Shown one piece after another: positions 1 through 61,081 of a stretch of DNA of 64,000 nt. The first letter of the stretch is position 1, and each line of letters begins with the position of its first letter. Position numbers and translations under genes: made by a program. Source of the stretch: Patescibacteria group bacterium. Lineage in GTDB: Bacteria; Patescibacteriota; Patescibacteriia; Veblenbacterales; UBA10138. The notes under the pieces were generated by a model. That model saw only the letters and a program-made list of their open reading frames with translations, did no database searches and had not been told where the DNA came from. The DNA lies in assembly GCA_041648575.1 (NCBI GenBank), contig JBAZOT010000003.1:14895-78894 (forward strand), in the 5' to 3' direction.

Positions 1-250
1 TGAATCCACTATCAATGACTCCAGCTAAAACTGTAATACCGTGCTTAGCAGCCAAGCCTGATTTATCCCAACATAAACCAACGAAACCCTCTGGAATGGC
101 TATAGCCACGCCGGTTCTAATTCCAGAGACATACTTACCTGCCGGAGCAATATAATCCTCCAAAGCAAACAAATCCAACGCAGCATCACCCGGTAAGGCA
201 TAGCTTGGCAATTTTGCGCGCGGATCAACTTTTTTTACTTGCAGTTGCAT
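1..250 (-). CDS. dut: dUTP diphosphatase, first ~83 codons; gene runs off the window start
   Basis: Not in the ORF track. My reverse-strand translation from ATG 248-250 gives MQLQVKKVDPRAKLPSYALPGDAALDLFA...GIRTGVAIAIPEGFVGLCWDKSGLAAKHGITVLAGVIDSGF, which matches trimeric dUTPase motifs. Confidence 0.85.
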   Translation of the reverse strand, partial: MQLQVKKVDPRAKLPSYALPGDAALDLFALEDYIAPAGKYVSGIRTGVAIAIPEGFVGLCWDKSGLAAKHGITVLAGVIDSGF

Positions 251-261
251 AAATATCATAT

Positions 262-1272
262 TTACTTATTAGTAATCTTTTCTTTATTAGCCAGATTAGC
301 CAGTTTTTCTTTAGCCCTAACAATACCAGCGGGACAACGATTACCCCAACCATCTAGAAATTTACCTTCTTTTAATACACATATCACTTCACAATTATTT
401 GGACAACCACCACATTCAATACTAACAGTTTTAAATTCAATATCCTGAACATTAAAACTAAAAAGTTTTTCAGATTGTGTATCACGAGCCAACATGGCCA
501 CTCCAATCGCTCCCATTAAATGACCAATTTCATCAACAATGATTTTATGACCTGTAATATTACCGAAAGACCTTACTACTCCAACATTTTTACTAACACC
601 ACCTTGAAAAACAACTGGCGGTTCAATATTTTTTCCTTTGCCAACATTATTTAAATAATTATAAACGATGGAATTACATAACCCAGCAATAATATCCTCT
701 TTAGAATAACCCATCTGCGCTTTATGAACCAAATCCGATTCAGCAAATACAGTACAACGGCCAGCAATTTTAGTTGGCGTATTGGATCTTAAAGCGTAAG
801 TACCAAACTCCTCCACGGGGATGTTTAAACGTCTAGCCTGTGAGGCTAAAAATGAACCGGTACCAGCTGCGCACAGTGTATTCATCGCATAATCAACCAC
901 TACTCCATTATCAATAATAATAAGTTTGCTGTCTTGTCCACCAATTTCAAAAATTGTTCTGACTTCAGGATGGAACGCTAAAGTGCCAATCGCATGAGCA
1001 GTAATCTCATTCTTAATTACAGTAGCCTCTAAAATTGTACCAATCAATTCACGAGCTGAACCAGTGGTACCTACGCCAACTATTGTAAGATTATTACCAT
1101 TAATTTGCTTCTTAACCTCTTTTAGTACCAGTCGAACTGCCCCAATCGGATCACCTTCGGTCCATAGATATGATTGAGCATAAATCCTATTATTATGATC
1201 GATCACTACAGCTTTAGTAGAAATCGAACCAATATCAAACCCTAAATATACTTTAATGGGCGCTGGTAGCAT
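262..1272 (-). CDS. HgdC/BcrA/BadF-type ATPase (activase of the 2-hydroxyacyl-CoA dehydratase/benzoyl-CoA reductase family) with extra C-terminal Cys cluster
   Basis: Actin-fold motifs GFDIGSISTK and EIGGQDSK. Cys contexts NTLCAAGTGSF and GRCTVFAESD match [4Fe-4S]-bridging activators. C-terminal CGGCPNNCEVIC. Overlaps the upstream ORF by 20 nt. Confidence 0.8.
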   Translation of the reverse strand: MLPAPIKVYLGFDIGSISTKAVVIDHNNRIYAQSYLWTEGDPIGAVRLVLKEVKKQINGNNLTIVGVGTTGSARELIGTILEATVIKNEITAHAIGTLAFHPEVRTIFEIGGQDSKLIIIDNGVVVDYAMNTLCAAGTGSFLASQARRLNIPVEEFGTYALRSNTPTKIAGRCTVFAESDLVHKAQMGYSKEDIIAGLCNSIVYNYLNNVGKGKNIEPPVVFQGGVSKNVGVVRSFGNITGHKIIVDEIGHLMGAIGVAMLARDTQSEKLFSFNVQDIEFKTVSIECGGCPNNCEVICVLKEGKFLDGWGNRCPAGIVRAKEKLANLANKEKITNK

Positions 1273-2371
1273 AATTGATTTTAGTGGTATTAGAATTTAA
1301 TTTATCTCTTTTCATAATCAACATATCATAAAAAGCCTCTAAACGTGTTTTAATTCCCGTCTCTGAAGTTTGGGCGTCAAAGCTAAAATAAATAATGGGC
1401 ACTTTATAATCCTTTGATAAACGGTAAAGTGCAGACATCGCATTAACCTCGGGCATACAACCAAAAGGCTTTAAATGAATAATGCCATCAAAACCCTGTT
1501 TAATCAACTTATGGGCTAACGCTACACTTTCTGTACCATGCGCACCTATATGATATTTTAAATATGGACTGGCTAATCTTAACAATTTAGTAATATGCGT
1601 GCCAAAAGAAAAGATATCATGAAGAATACTAGAAACGCTGCAAAAACGGTAAACTTCAATTCCCTTCTTAGCTAATTCCATTTCAATATTAAAATTTGAA
1701 AAAGGTTCCATTAAAACATATAATTCACCAACAATACCAACCCTTACTGGCTTGGTTGGTTTAACTACCTCAATTTCCTTAAATAATTCTTCATACTTTT
1801 TTCTTAATTGATTGATATCTTTTTTTGTACGCACACGCCCCAACTCGGATAAAAAAATTTTAAATAGCCGTTCATATTGACCTGGGTTTTTTTCAAAACC
1901 AATATTTTTTCTGATATAATCCTCTATTTCATCAATAACCTTAACTTTAAAATATGAAAGATAATATGTTTTAAAAAAACGCCAATATGTTAACTCTGAA
2001 TTATAGCTTCTAAAAATTTTAGCCAATGAAATGGGGTTGTAAGTATTAGTTAATTTAATCAGTGTGAATTTATATCCCATATTTTTTAAAATCGCTTCCT
2101 GTACTTCGCCGTAATAACCAAAGCGGCACCCACCACCAGCTTGAATAAGTAAATTAGCGCCACGCTCTAACACCTCAATGTAATTCCCTAAATTATATTT
2201 AAAAGGGACACAAACAGCCTCGGGGCTATATTTAAAACCAAGATCAACGGTCTTCCTGGTAATTGGCGGCGGCGGCACTAATTCTCCACCCAACATTTCT
2301 GCAAATGGTTTAATAGCTACATAATAATTTCCCATTAACGGGAAACTAATTTTTCTGTGTATTTGCTTCAT
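1253..2371 (-). CDS. HgdA/B-like (HGD-D type) component of a HAD/BCR-family enzyme
   Basis: Cys motifs EAVCVPFKYNLG, AGGGCRFGYYG and LKPFGCMPE resemble the C-terminal half of large CoA-substrate-specific enzyme activase proteins. Family assigned from memory. Confidence 0.55.
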   Translation of the reverse strand: MKQIHRKISFPLMGNYYVAIKPFAEMLGGELVPPPPITRKTVDLGFKYSPEAVCVPFKYNLGNYIEVLERGANLLIQAGGGCRFGYYGEVQEAILKNMGYKFTLIKLTNTYNPISLAKIFRSYNSELTYWRFFKTYYLSYFKVKVIDEIEDYIRKNIGFEKNPGQYERLFKIFLSELGRVRTKKDINQLRKKYEELFKEIEVVKPTKPVRVGIVGELYVLMEPFSNFNIEMELAKKGIEVYRFCSVSSILHDIFSFGTHITKLLRLASPYLKYHIGAHGTESVALAHKLIKQGFDGIIHLKPFGCMPEVNAMSALYRLSKDYKVPIIYFSFDAQTSETGIKTRLEAFYDMLIMKRDKLNSNTTKINYATSAH

Positions 2372-3302
2372 ATTTCAATTTACTTGCCTTTATTTTTAAA
2401 ATATCAACAAAACTCTCCAAGCGTGTTTTTAATCCAGCTTCTGACTGCAGCTCATCTAAAGTTATTACCACAATCGGAATATCTTTTATTTTATTCTGAC
2501 AAAGATTAATAACTAAAGAATCGGGTCCGCAGGGAAAAGTCATTAAAAATATAATGCCATCAAGATGCGGACGGTAAAGTTCAATAGCACCTAAAAAGTA
2601 TTTATGATAAGTCCAATATAAATCACGAGATAAATTAGTTGCCAATTGACGCGCCTGATCTTCATCAACAATGTTAGAATAAACTAAATCAACACCTTGT
2701 GATTCTAAAAACTTAACAATTGGTACACCCAAAAACGCATCATGTGTAGTGTAGGGGTGTGAAACAATTAATACCAGTGGATTGCTATTATCCCTGTCTT
2801 TAAATTTATTTACCTGATCGTTTACTAATTTTTGGTGATGTTGCTTATATTTTTTCTTTGCCTGAATATAAGCCAAGGCACGAGTAAAGGGATTACTATT
2901 TAATTGTTTTGCCATTAAAAATAAACCTATGCTCTCCCCTTTAAACTTCCCAGCATCTATTGTATAAGTTAAAATATTGATTTTATCAAAGCTATTACGG
3001 ACAATATCAACTAAGGCCATAAACTTAGTACACAAAAATTCACCATGCCGTAACGAAACAATGCGTGGTATAAAAATATAATCAACCTTATCCTTTAAAT
3101 AATCTACATGGCCTAAAAAAATTTTTACTGACAAACAACTTTCATCAACTGCTATATTAATACCCCGAGCCATTATTTCCTTATTAGTCGGCGGACTAAC
3201 AACCAACTGGCAACCTAATCTACTAAAATACTCATGCCAAAAAACAGAATATTTATGATAAAGCAAGGCACGCGGCAAACCAATTTTCTTCATAACGAAC
3301 AT
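2346..3302 (-). CDS. DUF2229-like component of a HAD/BCR-family enzyme
   Basis: IGLPRALLYHKYSVFWHEYFSRLGCQLVVSPPTNKEI, AVDESCLSVK and MTFPCGPD resemble the DUF2229 region of fused activase proteins. The likely true start is MKKIG (ATG 3291-3293). Confidence 0.6.
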   Translation of the reverse strand: MFVMKKIGLPRALLYHKYSVFWHEYFSRLGCQLVVSPPTNKEIMARGINIAVDESCLSVKIFLGHVDYLKDKVDYIFIPRIVSLRHGEFLCTKFMALVDIVRNSFDKINILTYTIDAGKFKGESIGLFLMAKQLNSNPFTRALAYIQAKKKYKQHHQKLVNDQVNKFKDRDNSNPLVLIVSHPYTTHDAFLGVPIVKFLESQGVDLVYSNIVDEDQARQLATNLSRDLYWTYHKYFLGAIELYRPHLDGIIFLMTFPCGPDSLVINLCQNKIKDIPIVVITLDELQSEAGLKTRLESFVDILKIKASKLKYEANTQKN

Positions 3303-3305
3303 GAT

Positions 3306-3878
3306 TTATTTAATATATCTACTAATAATCTTATTCTCAATTTGCTTATATAATTCTCCCAATGTATTTTCATTTATCAACTTAATACTAGCTTTCTTTC
3401 CCAAACGCTTAATATAAACCTCGGTTGGTAAATTTTCTTCGCGTTTAAATTGTTCAATGTTAAAATGCGCTTCGCCAACTTTTTCACTCCTGGCTTTAGC
3501 CCGCTTAAAACGTGTCGCTAAACTCGCAGTAACATAAACTAGTAAAAATCCAGGTATTTTGCTTAAAATCTCATATTCTCCAAGATGTCGTAAACCATCA
3601 ATCACAAATTTATTACCAGTTGTTCCTTCTAACCTAAATTTTAACACCTCGGCCAGTATTCCACCGCCAAATCGCTCACGTAATCCTCCCATCAAATTCA
3701 TCTCATTAACTCTGGTAATGGGTAAATGAAGCCTGTTTAAAATATCTACCACAATTTTAGAAAAACGAAAACTCTTAAACCGGTATCGTTTAACCAAATA
3801 TTTGCTAACCATTTCTTTACCGGAAAGTTTTTCTCCTACCAAAACTGATATTATTTTCTTGGTCTTAATTGTTTTCAT
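3306..3878 (-). CDS. small P-loop nucleotide-kinase-like protein with atypical Walker A
   Basis: GEKLSGKE replaces GxxxxGK[ST]. VIDGLRHLGE and LVYVTASLATRFKRAKAR resemble UPF0200/dephospho-CoA-kinase-like small kinases. Lies 3 nt from the next gene. Confidence 0.4.
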   Translation of the reverse strand: MKTIKTKKIISVLVGEKLSGKEMVSKYLVKRYRFKSFRFSKIVVDILNRLHLPITRVNEMNLMGGLRERFGGGILAEVLKFRLEGTTGNKFVIDGLRHLGEYEILSKIPGFLLVYVTASLATRFKRAKARSEKVGEAHFNIEQFKREENLPTEVYIKRLGKKASIKLINENTLGELYKQIENKIISRYIK

Positions 3879-3897
3879 AAAATAAACCTAGATTACT

Positions 3898-4464
3898 CTA
3901 GGTTTTAAAATTCTCATAAATTTTACTAGCCTGTGGAACATCGGCACCATAATACTTGGAACGAAGCTCCTTGCTTCCATAAGGCCGTTCGCAAGGAGAA
4001 GACAGTGGCATAAAAGCAATCTGCGCTATAGCCATTTTGTAATATAGCTTTACTGGCAAGTTACCAATATTATGTAGTTCTAAAGTCGGCTTTAATGAAT
4101 TTCCTGGATCAATAAAACCGGCCGTAGCATGAATGATAATTCCAATCCTGCCCAAAGAAGATTTTCCTTCTAAACGCCCTACCATATCATTAGACAAAGT
4201 TATTCTTTCTATAGTAACACCAAGAGCAAATTCGCCTGGGTGTAGAACAAACGGTTGATCTTCTTTAATTTCTACTTTATCCATTAAATCTGGTGTCTTC
4301 TCTCTAACATCAATGCAAACATGACCGGTGTTTTTAAATATCAAAAATTGATTATCCAAATGCAAATCAACAGATGCCGGTTGAATAGATTCATCAAACA
4401 ATGGCTCAATTTTTATTCTACCTTCAGCTAATATTTTTTTAATATCTTTGTCTGATAAAATCAT
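3898..4464 (-). CDS. dcd: dCTP deaminase
   Basis: MILSDKDIKKIL, ASVDLHL, GRLEGKSSLGRIG and HATAGFIDPG are motifs of the dCTP deaminase family. Confidence 0.9.
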   Translation of the reverse strand: MILSDKDIKKILAEGRIKIEPLFDESIQPASVDLHLDNQFLIFKNTGHVCIDVREKTPDLMDKVEIKEDQPFVLHPGEFALGVTIERITLSNDMVGRLEGKSSLGRIGIIIHATAGFIDPGNSLKPTLELHNIGNLPVKLYYKMAIAQIAFMPLSSPCERPYGSKELRSKYYGADVPQASKIYENFKT

Positions 4465-60593: not shown

Positions 60594-60700
60594 CATGAAG
60601 TATATGCTAGCAAATTAATACGCCATGAAGTTGTATAAAGAAGTAAATACTTCTTGGCTCGCCATGAAGTTATGCGAATAAAATGAGCATATACTTCATG
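60594..60700. repeat. cluster of CATGAAGT/ACTTCATG repeats abutting the tmRNA 3' end
   Basis: A 15-bp inverted repeat CATGAAGTATATGCT (60594-608) pairs with AGCATATACTTCATG (60686-700). The direct repeat CGCCATGAAGTT occurs twice, and there is an inner hairpin AGAAGTA-AA-TACTTCT. Confidence 0.6.
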
Positions 60701-61081
60701 GTGGAGATGGCGGGAATTACACCCGCGTCTAAGACAATTAACTTTACCCTTCTACAAACTTAGTCTGATTAATTTTGACAGAAGTCAAATCAGACCAAAG
60801 CCCCTGTCAATCTGTCCTAAGTAATGTCGGCCTAAGCACTAGAACAATACTTAAACCCTGCTCGATAAATGACGCTCTATAAGACTATCGAGATCGTCTA
60901 ATAGAACGGCCTCTGCTTAAATTAAGCAAAAGCTGGTGCTAGTGTCAAAGTGCTAAAAGCAGCTTTGGCGCGAGCTACAAATGATTTGGCATTTGTGAAG
61001 TGTGATGCTTTTATTACGCAGACACATCAACTGCGGTCTGCCAGACAAAGATCACTGCCTTATCGATTGTTAAACATCCCC
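60699..61081 (-). ncRNA. ssrA: tmRNA (transfer-messenger RNA)
   Basis: The 5' GGGGATG pairs with the 3' CATCTCC-A-CCA, including a G3.U pair. T-arm GCGGG-TGTAATT-CCCGC. An internal tag frame ends ...LAPAFA-TAA with the stop inside hairpin GCTTAA-TT-TAAGC. Adjacent to smpB. Confidence 0.85.

What the first reader, a model, noticed from the sequence alone, without database searches (positions are those of the whole stretch)
262..4464. Split HgdC-activase / HgdB-like / DUF2229 radical-enzyme module co-transcribed between dcd and dut
What the sequence shows: three overlapping minus-strand genes (overlaps of 26 and 20 nt) encode a DUF2229-like protein, an HgdA/B-like Cys-motif protein and a single HgdC/BcrA-type ATPase. 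The ATPase carries both cluster-bridging Cys contexts plus an extra CGGCPNNC motif. They sit in one tight transcription unit: dcd, kinase-like gene, these three genes, then dut (gaps of 19, 3 and 11 nt). Established background: this superfamily uses an ATP-driven [4Fe-4S] activator to inject low-potential electrons. Members include 2-hydroxyacyl-CoA dehydratases, benzoyl-CoA reductase, double-cubane cluster proteins and, as I recall, the anaerobic plasmalogen synthase PlsA/PlsR of Clostridium perfringens. The usual bacterial form is one giant fusion (two ATPase domains, then DUF2229, then HGD-D). Here it is split, reordered and has only one ATPase. Inference: in a reduced genome this is either a minimal PlsAR-like lipid-remodelling enzyme or, given the flanking deoxynucleotide genes, a radical enzyme acting on a nucleotide-related substrate. 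The second idea is highly speculative.
Basis: partly seen in the sequence, partly recalled or inferred. Interest (0 to 1): 0.6.

Follow-up and report, generated by a model that had tools for sequence, protein, structure and literature searches.

The report
Split PlsA/Ger-like iron-sulfur reductase cassette
Three overlapping genes in a tiny-genome (Patescibacteria) bacterium encode an unfused, one-ATPase version of the oxygen-sensitive iron-sulfur enzymes that make bacterial ether lipids. The cassette is common in anaerobes, and its position between two deoxynucleotide genes comes from a local insertion, not a functional link.

Summary
The minus strand reads dcd (3898-4464), a P-loop kinase-like gene (3306-3878), Red1 (2346-3302; full DUF2229), Red2 (1253-2371; DUF2229 N-terminus plus HGD-D), Act (262-1272; BcrAD_BadFG ATPase) and dut (1-250, cut by the window edge). 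Overlaps and gaps are as stated.

Models of Red1 and Red2 match only catalytic subunits of 2-hydroxyacyl-CoA dehydratase, benzoyl-CoA reductase and double-cubane proteins.

The closest relatives of Act among 1.8 billion representatives are about 1,400-residue fused proteins with the PlsA/Ger domain layout. The match covers the "extra" CGGCPNNC motif, so that motif is a family feature. All 12 conserved cysteines are shared by split and fused forms.

The split cassette is not rare: relatives of Red1 occur in at least 473 species genomes, nearly always in the order Red1, Red2, Act.

The dcd/dut linkage is not conserved:
- 0 of 80 loci from other species carry it.
- Three syntenic relatives have dcd-kinase-dut-thyA-folA-tmk with kinase directly followed by dut.

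The cassette is therefore a roughly 3 kb insertion into a dTTP operon.

Best reading: an ATP-driven [4Fe-4S] reductase of the PlsA/Ger clade. A lipid-ester substrate is plausible but unproven, because Red1 and Red2 are only 20-27% identical to the fused forms.

The parts
2346..3302 (-). Red1: catalytic subunit, 318 aa (315 aa if it starts at Met4, window 3293). Full DUF2229 domain. Invariant Cys56, Cys91, Cys258.
   Evidence: Pfam DUF2229 1.7e-44. AF2 model pLDDT 92.6. Best PDB folds are HadC 3o3n_B, then DCCP. Cys invariant in 83 of 83 homologues and in 6 fused proteins.
1253..2371 (-). Red2: paralogous catalytic subunit, 372 aa. DUF2229 N-terminus plus HGD-D C-terminal half. Invariant Cys54, Cys82, Cys305.
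487..1245 (-). Act ATPase core (residues 10-262 of the 336-aa protein encoded at 262-1272). HgdC/BcrAD-type activator with cluster-bridging Cys134 and Cys173.
   Evidence: BcrAD_BadFG 2.6e-46; TIGR00241 185 bits. PDB matches: MbdQ, HadI, HgdC, 1e-33 to 1e-39. Cys134/173 align with HgdC Cys127/166.
265..468 (-). Act C-terminal extension (residues about 269-336) with invariant Cys287, Cys290, Cys294, Cys313 (C-x2-C-x3-C...C). Probable extra metal or Fe-S site.
   Evidence: Absent from solved activators, whose matches end at residues 264-268. Invariant in 61 of 61 split homologues. Present after Act2 of the fused ~1400-aa proteins.
251..3305 (.). About 3.05 kb interval present here but absent from the same site in syntenic relatives. 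This is the inserted Red1-Red2-Act cassette.
   Evidence: L090, L091 and L092 have dcd-kinase-dut with 2, 2 and 48 nt between kinase and dut. Junction sequences.
3306..3878 (-). P-loop kinase-like gene of the flanking deoxynucleotide operon. Not part of the cassette.
   Evidence: Weak AAA_18 and DNMK hits; PRK08356 8.6e-13. Always sits between dcd and dut in relatives.
3898..4464 (-). dcd (dCTP deaminase). Flanking operon gene.
   Evidence: TIGR02274 199 bits. 86% identical to the L090 dcd.
1..250 (-). dut (dUTPase), N-terminal 83 codons. Cut by the window edge.
   Evidence: Translation. Full 141-aa dUTPase on the parent contig.

Best explanation
The three genes encode a self-contained, unfused member of the PlsA/PlsR/Ger clade of the benzoyl-CoA reductase / 2-hydroxyacyl-CoA dehydratase (BCR/HAD) superfamily.

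Shown here:
- Act is an HgdC-type ATPase with the two cluster-bridging cysteines plus the clade-specific 4-Cys C-terminal extension.
- Red1 and Red2 are paralogous HAD-fold subunits, each with three invariant cysteines.
- All 12 cysteine positions, the DUF2229 domain and the order of the modules match the ~1400-residue fused Act1-Act2-Red1-Red2 proteins.

Inferred mechanism:
- Because there is a single Act gene, Act probably homodimerises around one bridging [4Fe-4S] cluster, as HgdC and HadI do.
- It would accept a low-potential electron from ferredoxin or flavodoxin.
- ATP hydrolysis would drive that electron into the 3-Cys [4Fe-4S] clusters of a Red1/Red2 heterodimer.
- There a carbonyl group would be reduced through a ketyl-type radical and dehydrated.

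Most likely substrate, by homology only: the sn-1 acyl ester of a glycerophospholipid, giving a vinyl-ether (plasmalogen) or alkyl-ether lipid. Such an enzyme would let a bacterium that cannot make its own lipids remodel scavenged ones.

Location: the cassette moves as a unit. In this genome it was inserted between the kinase-like gene and dut of a conserved dTTP operon (dcd-kinase-dut-thyA-folA-tmk-tdk). It has no demonstrable functional tie to that operon.
For: - Family placement.
- Closest relatives of Act among 1.84 billion representatives are ~1400-aa proteins with two ATPase stretches. The best stretch is query 6-319 against Act2 plus the Cys-rich linker.
- blastp identities: Act to Act2 45-47%, Act to Act1 38-45%, Red1 25-27% (E about 1e-30), Red2 20-23% (E 1e-19 to 1e-9), collinear with the fused proteins.
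- The fused proteins are BcrAD_BadFG x2 plus DUF2229. This is the BBD... architecture reported for Ger and PlsA (PMC13159169; PMC12838417).
- All 12 Cys columns are conserved in split and fused forms.
- HgdC Cys127/166 are equivalent to Act C134/C173.
- The cassette is autonomous. Red1-Red2-Act order with short overlaps holds in almost all of 89 loci from Patescibacteria, Actinomycetota, Chloroflexota and Bacillota, with no neighbour conserved across the family.
- Insertion.
- Patescibacteria generally lack lipid biosynthesis (PMC12281837, PMC13293708).
Against: - Red1 and Red2 are only 20-27% identical to the fused proteins I could retrieve. Characterised plasmalogen synthases are 41-55% identical to one another. 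Substrate identity cannot be transferred with confidence.
- I could not obtain the characterised sequences (Q8XL48, Q8XL47, Q835P9, Tmari_0479), so orthology is untested.
- No lipid gene is linked to the cassette in any locus or elsewhere in the window.
- Some cassette carriers are Clostridia and Coriobacteriia, groups reported to have fused plsA. If both forms sit in one genome, the split form may act on a different substrate.
- The metal content of the 4-Cys extension is unknown.
Confidence: 0.6

Rival explanations
1. The cassette is an ATP-dependent Fe-S reductase or dehydratase of the same clade, but it acts on a non-lipid, still unknown substrate such as a small carbonyl or hydroxy-acid compound. 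It would be a functionally distinct sister family of PlsA/Ger.
For: - Low identity of the catalytic subunits to fused forms: 20-27%.
- The ATPase is far better conserved than the catalytic subunits: 63-79% across phyla against 43-64% for Red1 and Red2.
- The cassette occurs in Clostridia and Coriobacteriia, groups reported to carry fused plsA.
- No lipid genes lie nearby.
Against: - The only experimentally assigned functions for DUF2229-containing enzymes that I found are ester-to-ether lipid reductions.
- No alternative substrate is suggested by any conserved neighbour.
- Patescibacteria have very few small-molecule pathways that would need such an enzyme.
Confidence: 0.3
2. The cassette is a classical 2-hydroxyacyl-CoA dehydratase (HgdAB/HadBC-type) with its activator, used in amino-acid fermentation. 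NCBI names Red2 this way.
For: - HGD-D Pfam hits.
- HadC and HadB are among the best fold matches.
- The NCBI name for Red2 is '2-hydroxyacyl-CoA dehydratase'.
Against: - HGD-D matches are partial and at threshold. Red1 is a full DUF2229 domain, which classical HAD subunits are not filed under.
- Act carries the 4-Cys extension that is absent from HgdC and HadI.
- The nearest sequence relatives are fused PlsA/Ger-type proteins, not HgdC.
- No CoA-transferase or any other conserved partner gene is found in 89 loci.
- From my own knowledge: gene order has the activator last, whereas classical HAD operons have it first.
Confidence: 0.05
3. The cassette is a radical enzyme acting on a nucleotide-related substrate, functionally coupled to dcd and dut.
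For: No ribonucleotide reductase was found among the window ORFs scanned.
Against: - 0 of 80 other species, and none of the extra loci, have dcd, dut, kinase, thyA or tmk within up to 10 kb of the cassette at E < 1e-3. Positive controls were detected.
- Three syntenic relatives keep the whole dTTP operon with kinase directly abutting dut and no cassette. The closest has dcd 86% and dut 81% identical to the window's.
- Tight co-directional packing is general in this window.
Confidence: 0.03

Closest known systems
PlsA/PlsR plasmalogen synthase (C. perfringens CPE1194/1195, UniProt Q8XL48/Q8XL47; single-gene PlsA in E. faecalis, L. cremoris, B. longum) and Ger glycerol ester reductase (T. maritima Tmari_0479)
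   Same: - Same module set: HgdC-type ATPase, DUF2229 'Red1' and HGD-D-like 'Red2'.
- Same 4-Cys extension after the ATPase that precedes Red1.
- Same 2+4+3+3 conserved cysteines.
- Found in anaerobes.
- Act is 45-47% identical to Act2 of fused proteins with this architecture.
- C. perfringens already shows that the enzyme can work as two polypeptides.
   Different: - Three separate genes in the order Red1-Red2-Act, instead of Act1-Act2-Red1(-Red2).
- One ATPase gene, so presumably a homodimer, instead of two fused ATPase domains.
- Red1 and Red2 are only 20-27% identical to the fused forms compared here.
- No activity data, and no direct comparison with the characterised proteins was possible.
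2-hydroxyacyl-CoA dehydratases with their activators (HgdAB/HgdC; HadBC/HadI)
   Same: - Homodimeric-type activator with Cys127/Cys166-equivalent ligands.
- Two paralogous catalytic subunits, each with three conserved Cys.
- HadC and HadB are among the top fold matches.
   Different: - Act has an extra 4-Cys C-terminal domain.
- Red1 is a DUF2229 domain.
- Sequence similarity to HadC is marginal, E about 2e-3 by profile.
- No CoA-transferase partner gene.
- From my own knowledge: gene order differs, with the activator last here and first in classical HAD operons.
Class I benzoyl-CoA reductases (BcrABCD, BzdNOPQ, MbdONQP)
   Different: BCRs have two different ATPase subunits and larger catalytic subunits that bind aromatic CoA esters. 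Here there is one ATPase with a Cys-rich tail, and DUF2229.
Double-cubane cluster protein DCCP with its reductase DCCP-R (6eno, 7yyl)
   Same: Same fold family for Red1 and Red2. ATP-dependent reductase partner (7yyl_E, 5.5e-22).
   Different: Only three invariant Cys per Red subunit. From my own knowledge, that is too few for the [8Fe-9S] double cubane, which uses about six Cys.

Membership tests
BCR/HAD/DCCP superfamily (ATP-driven [4Fe-4S] activator plus catalytic subunits) | ASKHA-fold BcrAD_BadFG ATPase with two cysteines that bridge a [4Fe-4S] cluster at the dimer interface | tested here: met
   PF01869 2.6e-46; TIGR00241 185 bits. C134 and C173 align with HgdC Cys127/166 and are invariant in 61 of 61 homologues. 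The cluster itself cannot be tested here.
BCR/HAD/DCCP superfamily (ATP-driven [4Fe-4S] activator plus catalytic subunits) | Catalytic subunits with the HAD alpha/beta fold | tested here: met
BCR/HAD/DCCP superfamily (ATP-driven [4Fe-4S] activator plus catalytic subunits) | Three conserved Cys per catalytic subunit for a [4Fe-4S] cluster | tested here: met
   Red1 C56/C91/C258 in 83 of 83 homologues; Red2 C54/C82/C305 in 77 of 77. Actual cluster binding cannot be tested here.
PlsA/PlsR/Ger ether-lipid synthases | DUF2229 (PF09989) reduction domain | tested here: met
   Red1 matches 1-215 of 218 profile positions, 1.7e-44. Red2 matches the N-terminal 60 residues.
PlsA/PlsR/Ger ether-lipid synthases | Two BcrAD_BadFG activation domains fused upstream of DUF2229 (the 'BBD' core conserved in all alkyl-ether producers, PMC13159169) | tested here: not met
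   There is one ATPase gene, separate and downstream of Red1 and Red2. No second BcrAD-type ATPase occurs in any of 89 loci.
PlsA/PlsR/Ger ether-lipid synthases | 4-Cys (C-x2-C-x3-C...C) segment between the ATPase and Red1 | tested here: met
   Act C287/C290/C294/C313 align with the linker after Act2 in six fused proteins. This feature was defined by me from the fused relatives, not taken from the literature.
PlsA/PlsR/Ger ether-lipid synthases | Close sequence relationship or orthology to a characterised PlsA, PlsR or Ger | not testable with these tools
   The sequences Q8XL48, Q8XL47, Q835P9 and Tmari_0479 could not be obtained. Against uncharacterised fused relatives, Red1 is 25-27% and Red2 20-23% identical.
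PlsA/PlsR/Ger ether-lipid synthases | Converts the sn-1 acyl ester to a vinyl or alkyl ether under anoxic conditions | not testable with these tools
   Needs heterologous expression and lipid analysis.
2-hydroxyacyl-CoA dehydratase systems | Full-length HGD-D (PF06050) catalytic subunits and a partner CoA-transferase in the operon | tested here: not met
   HGD-D matches only Red2 residues 183-351, at threshold, and is below threshold in Red1. No neighbour is conserved across the family in 85 loci.
Double-cubane cluster proteins | About six Cys ligands for an [8Fe-9S] cluster (from my own knowledge of DCCP) | tested here: not met
   Only three invariant Cys in each of Red1 and Red2.
Deoxynucleotide (dcd/dut) operon as a functional unit that includes the cassette | Conserved linkage of the cassette to dcd/dut in other genomes | tested here: not met
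   0 of 80 species loci carry the linkage. Three syntenic relatives have dcd-kinase-dut without the cassette.

The most novel reading that the evidence does not exclude
The split Red1-Red2-Act cassette is a minimal three-subunit ether-lipid (plasmalogen or alkyl-ether) synthase. Patescibacteria and other reduced-genome anaerobes cannot make fatty acids or phospholipids. They would use it to convert diacyl phospholipids scavenged from hosts into ether lipids. This would be a concrete enzymatic step in how these episymbionts build or modify their membranes.
Probability: 0.3. Interest if true: 0.6.

Novelty: new variant of a known kind. Interest (0 to 1): 0.35.

Why it matters
If the split cassette is a working ester-to-ether lipid reductase, three things follow:
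- It would be the smallest and most tractable form of the PlsA/Ger enzymes: three proteins of about 320-370 residues instead of one of about 1,400 residues. That suits structural and mechanistic work.
- It would extend predicted ether-lipid capacity to hundreds of anaerobic lineages that searches for fused proteins may miss or misread.
- It would give a testable handle on how Patescibacteria, which lack lipid biosynthesis, tailor scavenged membranes.

If it is not a lipid enzyme, it is a widespread uncharacterised ATP-driven Fe-S reductase family of unknown substrate.

In either case the dcd/dut context is an accident of insertion. It should not be used for functional inference.

Tried and rejected
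- Nucleotide hypothesis: tested by tblastn of dcd, kinase, dut, thyA and tmk against all module loci and by synteny. Rejected.
- Conserved-neighbour search: all-against-all clustering of 2,078 flanking ORFs. It found only lineage-specific synteny. No lipid, CoA-transferase or ferredoxin gene is conserved across the family. POR plus ferredoxin follows the cassette in one actinobacterial lineage only.
- The afdb50 fold library would have shown whether Q8XL48, Q8XL47 or Q835P9 are the nearest models. It was not available.
- The Jackson et al. 2021 PlsAR paper is not held.
- The listing of cluster members on ten fused relatives gave only generic names ('acyl-CoA dehydratase activase', 'CoA activase') from environmental MAGs, with no characterised protein.
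- NCBIfam has no model for Red1 or Red2.
- Sequence searches of the PDB with Red1 and Red2, alone or as profiles, gave only marginal HadC hits, E about 2e-3.
- Literature searches for this cassette in Patescibacteria found nothing.
- The promoter/terminator scan is at background level and does not define the transcription unit.
- A Pfam inventory of 30 further window ORFs found only housekeeping genes, with no ribonucleotide reductase and no lipid genes. The complete genome could not be inventoried.

Full report
**1. What is in the sequence**

The minus strand of window 1-4464 carries six genes in this order:

| Gene | Coordinates | Length |
|---|---|---|
| dcd | 3898-4464 | 188 aa |
| P-loop kinase-like gene | 3306-3878 | 190 aa |
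| Red1 | 2346-3302 | 318 aa |
| Red2 | 1253-2371 | 372 aa |
| Act | 262-1272 | 336 aa |
| dut | 1-250 | first 83 codons (cut by the window edge) |

The public gene call for Red1 starts three codons later, at window 3293.

Domain matches:
- Act matches BcrAD_BadFG (2.6e-46) and NCBIfam TIGR00241 'acyl-CoA dehydratase activase' (185 bits; cut-off 125).
- Red1 matches DUF2229 over its full length (1.7e-44) and has a sub-threshold HGD-D C-terminus.
- Red2 matches the first 60 residues of DUF2229 and the C-terminal half of HGD-D, both just above Pfam's gathering score.
- dcd matches TIGR02274 (199 bits).

The organism is a Patescibacteria (CPR) MAG. The identical Red1 protein is on a 101-kb contig named 'Patescibacteria group bacterium'.

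**2. Family placement holds**

- Act hits the solved activators MbdQ, HadI and HgdC at 1e-33 to 1e-39.
- In the HgdC alignment, Act C134 and C173 fall on Cys127 and Cys166. From my own knowledge, these are the cluster-bridging ligands of HgdC.
- An AlphaFold2 model of Red1 (24-sequence alignment, pLDDT 92.6) finds HadC first (TM 0.60) and the double-cubane protein next.
- Red1 and Red2 are paralogues: hhalign probability 98.3%, E 1.3e-14 over 306 columns.

Both ORFs belong to the HAD/BCR superfamily.

**3. Relation to the giant fused enzymes**

I searched Act against 1.84 billion 50%-identity representatives. The top of the list is filled with proteins of about 1,400 residues (some shorter, several truncated) that each match twice. 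The better stretch is typically query residues 6-319 against residues of about 330-650 of the target. That stretch is the second ATPase domain together with what follows it.

- The retrieved fused proteins carry, right after Act2, a segment such as 'FECKSCSNACTINK...GSRCDKY'. It aligns with the window's 'IECGGCPNNCEVIC...GNRCPAG'.
- Solved stand-alone activators stop before this segment: their matches end at residues 264-268.
- The 'extra CGGCPNNC motif' is therefore a signature shared with the fused family, not a peculiarity of this gene.

blastp maps all three window proteins collinearly onto the fused proteins:

| Window protein | Region of fused protein | Identity | E-value |
|---|---|---|---|
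| Act | Act2 | 45-47% | not tabulated here |
| Act | Act1 | 38-45% | not tabulated here |
| Red1 | residues about 685-1005 | 25-27% | about 1e-30 |
| Red2 | residues about 1010-1410 | 20-23% | 1e-19 to 1e-9 |

Pfam sees the fused proteins as two BcrAD_BadFG domains plus DUF2229. This is the 'BBD...' architecture described for the glycerol ester reductase Ger and for PlsA (PMC13159169). It is also described as Act1-Act2-Red1-Red2 (PMC12838417).

Twelve cysteine columns are invariant in the split family and also conserved in six fused proteins:
- Act C134, C173, C287, C290, C294, C313
- Red1 C56, C91, C258
- Red2 C54, C82, C305

**4. The split form is common**

- Red1 has 1,172 database relatives at E <= 1e-3. 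The best 120 are 269-346 residues, mostly about 310.
- Red2 has 2,895 relatives, and the best 120 are 330-382 residues.
- A pattern-limited scan of one genome per GTDB species found 473 genomes. They span Patescibacteria, Actinomycetota (mostly Coriobacteriia), Chloroflexota (Anaerolineae) and Bacillota (Clostridium, Desulfitobacterium, Romboutsia, Erysipelotrichia and uncultured gut Bacilli).
- Cultured carriers include Minisyncoccus archaeiphilus, Metaclostridioides mangenotii, Clostridium paridis and C. polyendosporum.
- In almost every locus the order is Red1, Red2, Act, with overlaps of a few bases.
- Act is 63-79% identical across phyla, against 43-64% for Red1 and Red2.
- A group of gut Bacilli loci has no Act within the stretch fetched.
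- No locus carries a second ATPase. I therefore infer that a homodimeric Act replaces the Act1/Act2 pair.

**5. The dcd/dut context is an insertion**

secE-nusG-rplK-rplA-dcd-kinase-[Red1-Red2-Act]-dut-M23 peptidase-(PNP_UDP_1, opposite strand)-thyA-HTH-folA-tmk-tdk-gatB.

At first sight that strengthens the nucleotide idea. Comparative data remove it:
- None of the 80 GTDB loci has a dcd, dut, kinase, thyA or tmk homologue near the cassette at E < 1e-3. Of these, 51 have at least 3 kb on both sides. None of the extra loci has one either. All positive controls were detected.
- Clustering 2,078 flanking ORFs gave only lineage-specific synteny.
- Homologues of the kinase-like protein led to three syntenic Patescibacteria contigs, L090, L091 and L092. 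All three have secE-nusG-rplK-rplA-dcd-kinase-dut-...-thyA-...-folA-tmk-...-gatB.
- In those contigs kinase is followed by dut after 2, 2 and 48 nt, with no cassette.
- L090 is a close relative: its dcd is 86% and its dut 81% identical to the window's.

The cassette, about window 251-3305, was therefore inserted between the kinase stop codon and the dut start codon of a pre-existing dTTP operon.

At the junction, the window reads AAATAA-ATC-ATG-TTC-GTT-ATG-AAG. L091 reads AAATAG-TC-ATG-AAA (the dut start). The first ATG of the Red1 ORF might be a leftover of the old dut start codon. This is a guess.

Tight co-directional packing is general here: 38 of the 43 ORFs of at least 150 aa between 8 and 64 kb are on the minus strand, often 0-20 nt apart. 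Promoter-like sites are at the level of shuffled sequence.

**6. How it most likely works**

Shown: the module set, the folds and the twelve conserved cysteines.

Inferred from established knowledge of HgdC/HadI-HadBC and of the BCR family:
- An Act homodimer holds one bridging [4Fe-4S] cluster and takes an electron from reduced ferredoxin or flavodoxin.
- ATP binding and hydrolysis drive that electron into the 3-Cys [4Fe-4S] clusters of a Red1/Red2 heterodimer.
- There a carbonyl is reduced to a ketyl-type radical.
- The 4-Cys extension may bind a further cluster or zinc and dock Act onto Red1. In the fused proteins it is the physical link between Act2 and Red1.

Substrate:
- The only DUF2229 enzymes with assigned functions that I found convert the sn-1 acyl ester of glycerophospholipids to a vinyl ether (PlsA/PlsR) or an alkyl ether (Ger).
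- Patescibacteria generally lack fatty-acid and phospholipid synthesis. Remodelling of scavenged lipids is therefore an attractive role.
- This step rests on homology alone. Red1 and Red2 are only 20-27% identical to the fused proteins I could compare.
- I could not obtain the characterised sequences.
- No lipid gene is linked to the cassette anywhere.
- Some carriers belong to groups reported to have fused plsA. That would fit a different substrate.

**7. Verdict**

- The family assignment and the 'split PlsAR-like' reading are supported as the best available explanation.
- The 'extra motif', the rarity of the split form and the nucleotide hypothesis are not supported.
- In the databases the cassette appears only under generic names ('acyl-CoA dehydratase activase-related protein', '2-hydroxyacyl-CoA dehydratase'). 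I found no paper that describes it.
- I rate it a new architectural variant of a known kind of enzyme, of moderate interest.

Noticed in passing
Parent contig, L087:8830-18286 (window 4464 leftwards and about 5 kb beyond window position 1): A compact pyrimidine deoxynucleotide supercluster: dcd, kinase-like gene, dut, PNP_UDP_1, thyA, HTH regulator, folA, tmk, tdk. It lies directly downstream of secE-nusG-rplK-rplA and is conserved in three related Patescibacteria (L090-L092). The uncharacterised 190-aa P-loop protein always sits between dcd and dut, so it is probably a dNMP kinase-type enzyme.
   Followed up: partly
window 3884-3905 (minus strand): A 9-bp hairpin (AAACCTAGA-GTAA-TCTAGGTTT) followed by ATTTTATG spans the dcd stop codon and the 19-nt gap before the kinase start. 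It could be an attenuator or RNA-stability element. It could also be a chance match (7 terminator-like sites found, 4.7 expected).
   Followed up: no
window 3293-3302: The Red1 ORF has two in-frame ATG codons, at 3302 and 3293. The public gene call uses the second. The first lies where dut's start codon lies in syntenic relatives, so it may be a relic of the insertion junction.
   Followed up: partly
window 60699-61081 (minus strand): Full-length tmRNA gene (Rfam RF00023, 97.5 bits). It is the only Rfam match in the window.
   Followed up: no
L005/L006:11068-14637: In one actinobacterial lineage the cassette is followed directly by a CO_dh-domain gene, a four-gene 2-oxoacid:ferredoxin oxidoreductase set and a ferredoxin. 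These are a plausible low-potential electron supply. The arrangement is not general across the family.
   Followed up: partly
L038, L041, L055, L065-L067, L074, L077, L079, L084, L086: A group of uncultured gut 'Bacilli' (one labelled Muribaculaceae) has Red1 and Red2 but no Act-type ATPase in the stretch fetched (up to 10 kb on each side, less in short contigs). Two small membrane proteins follow instead, one of them Vut_1 family. The ATPase may be encoded elsewhere.
   Followed up: partly
L003/L023:10008-10867; L016:7691-8501; L034:10939-13063: In a Berkelbacteria MAG and in UBA6102 the Act gene is hit in two pieces and was not called as a gene in L003. This may be a frameshift, a pseudogene or an assembly error. 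L034 carries two tandem Red2 copies.
   Followed up: no
L088:1201-3166: A bAvd-like gene plus a reverse transcriptase (RVT_1) lie about 5-7 kb upstream of the cassette in Patescibacteria UBA6220. The pair resembles a diversity-generating retroelement.
   Followed up: no
window 1-64000: GC skew is negative in every 2-kb bin, and 38 of the 43 ORFs of at least 150 aa between 8 and 64 kb are on the minus strand. The whole window appears to lie on one replichore with strong co-orientation of genes.
   Followed up: no
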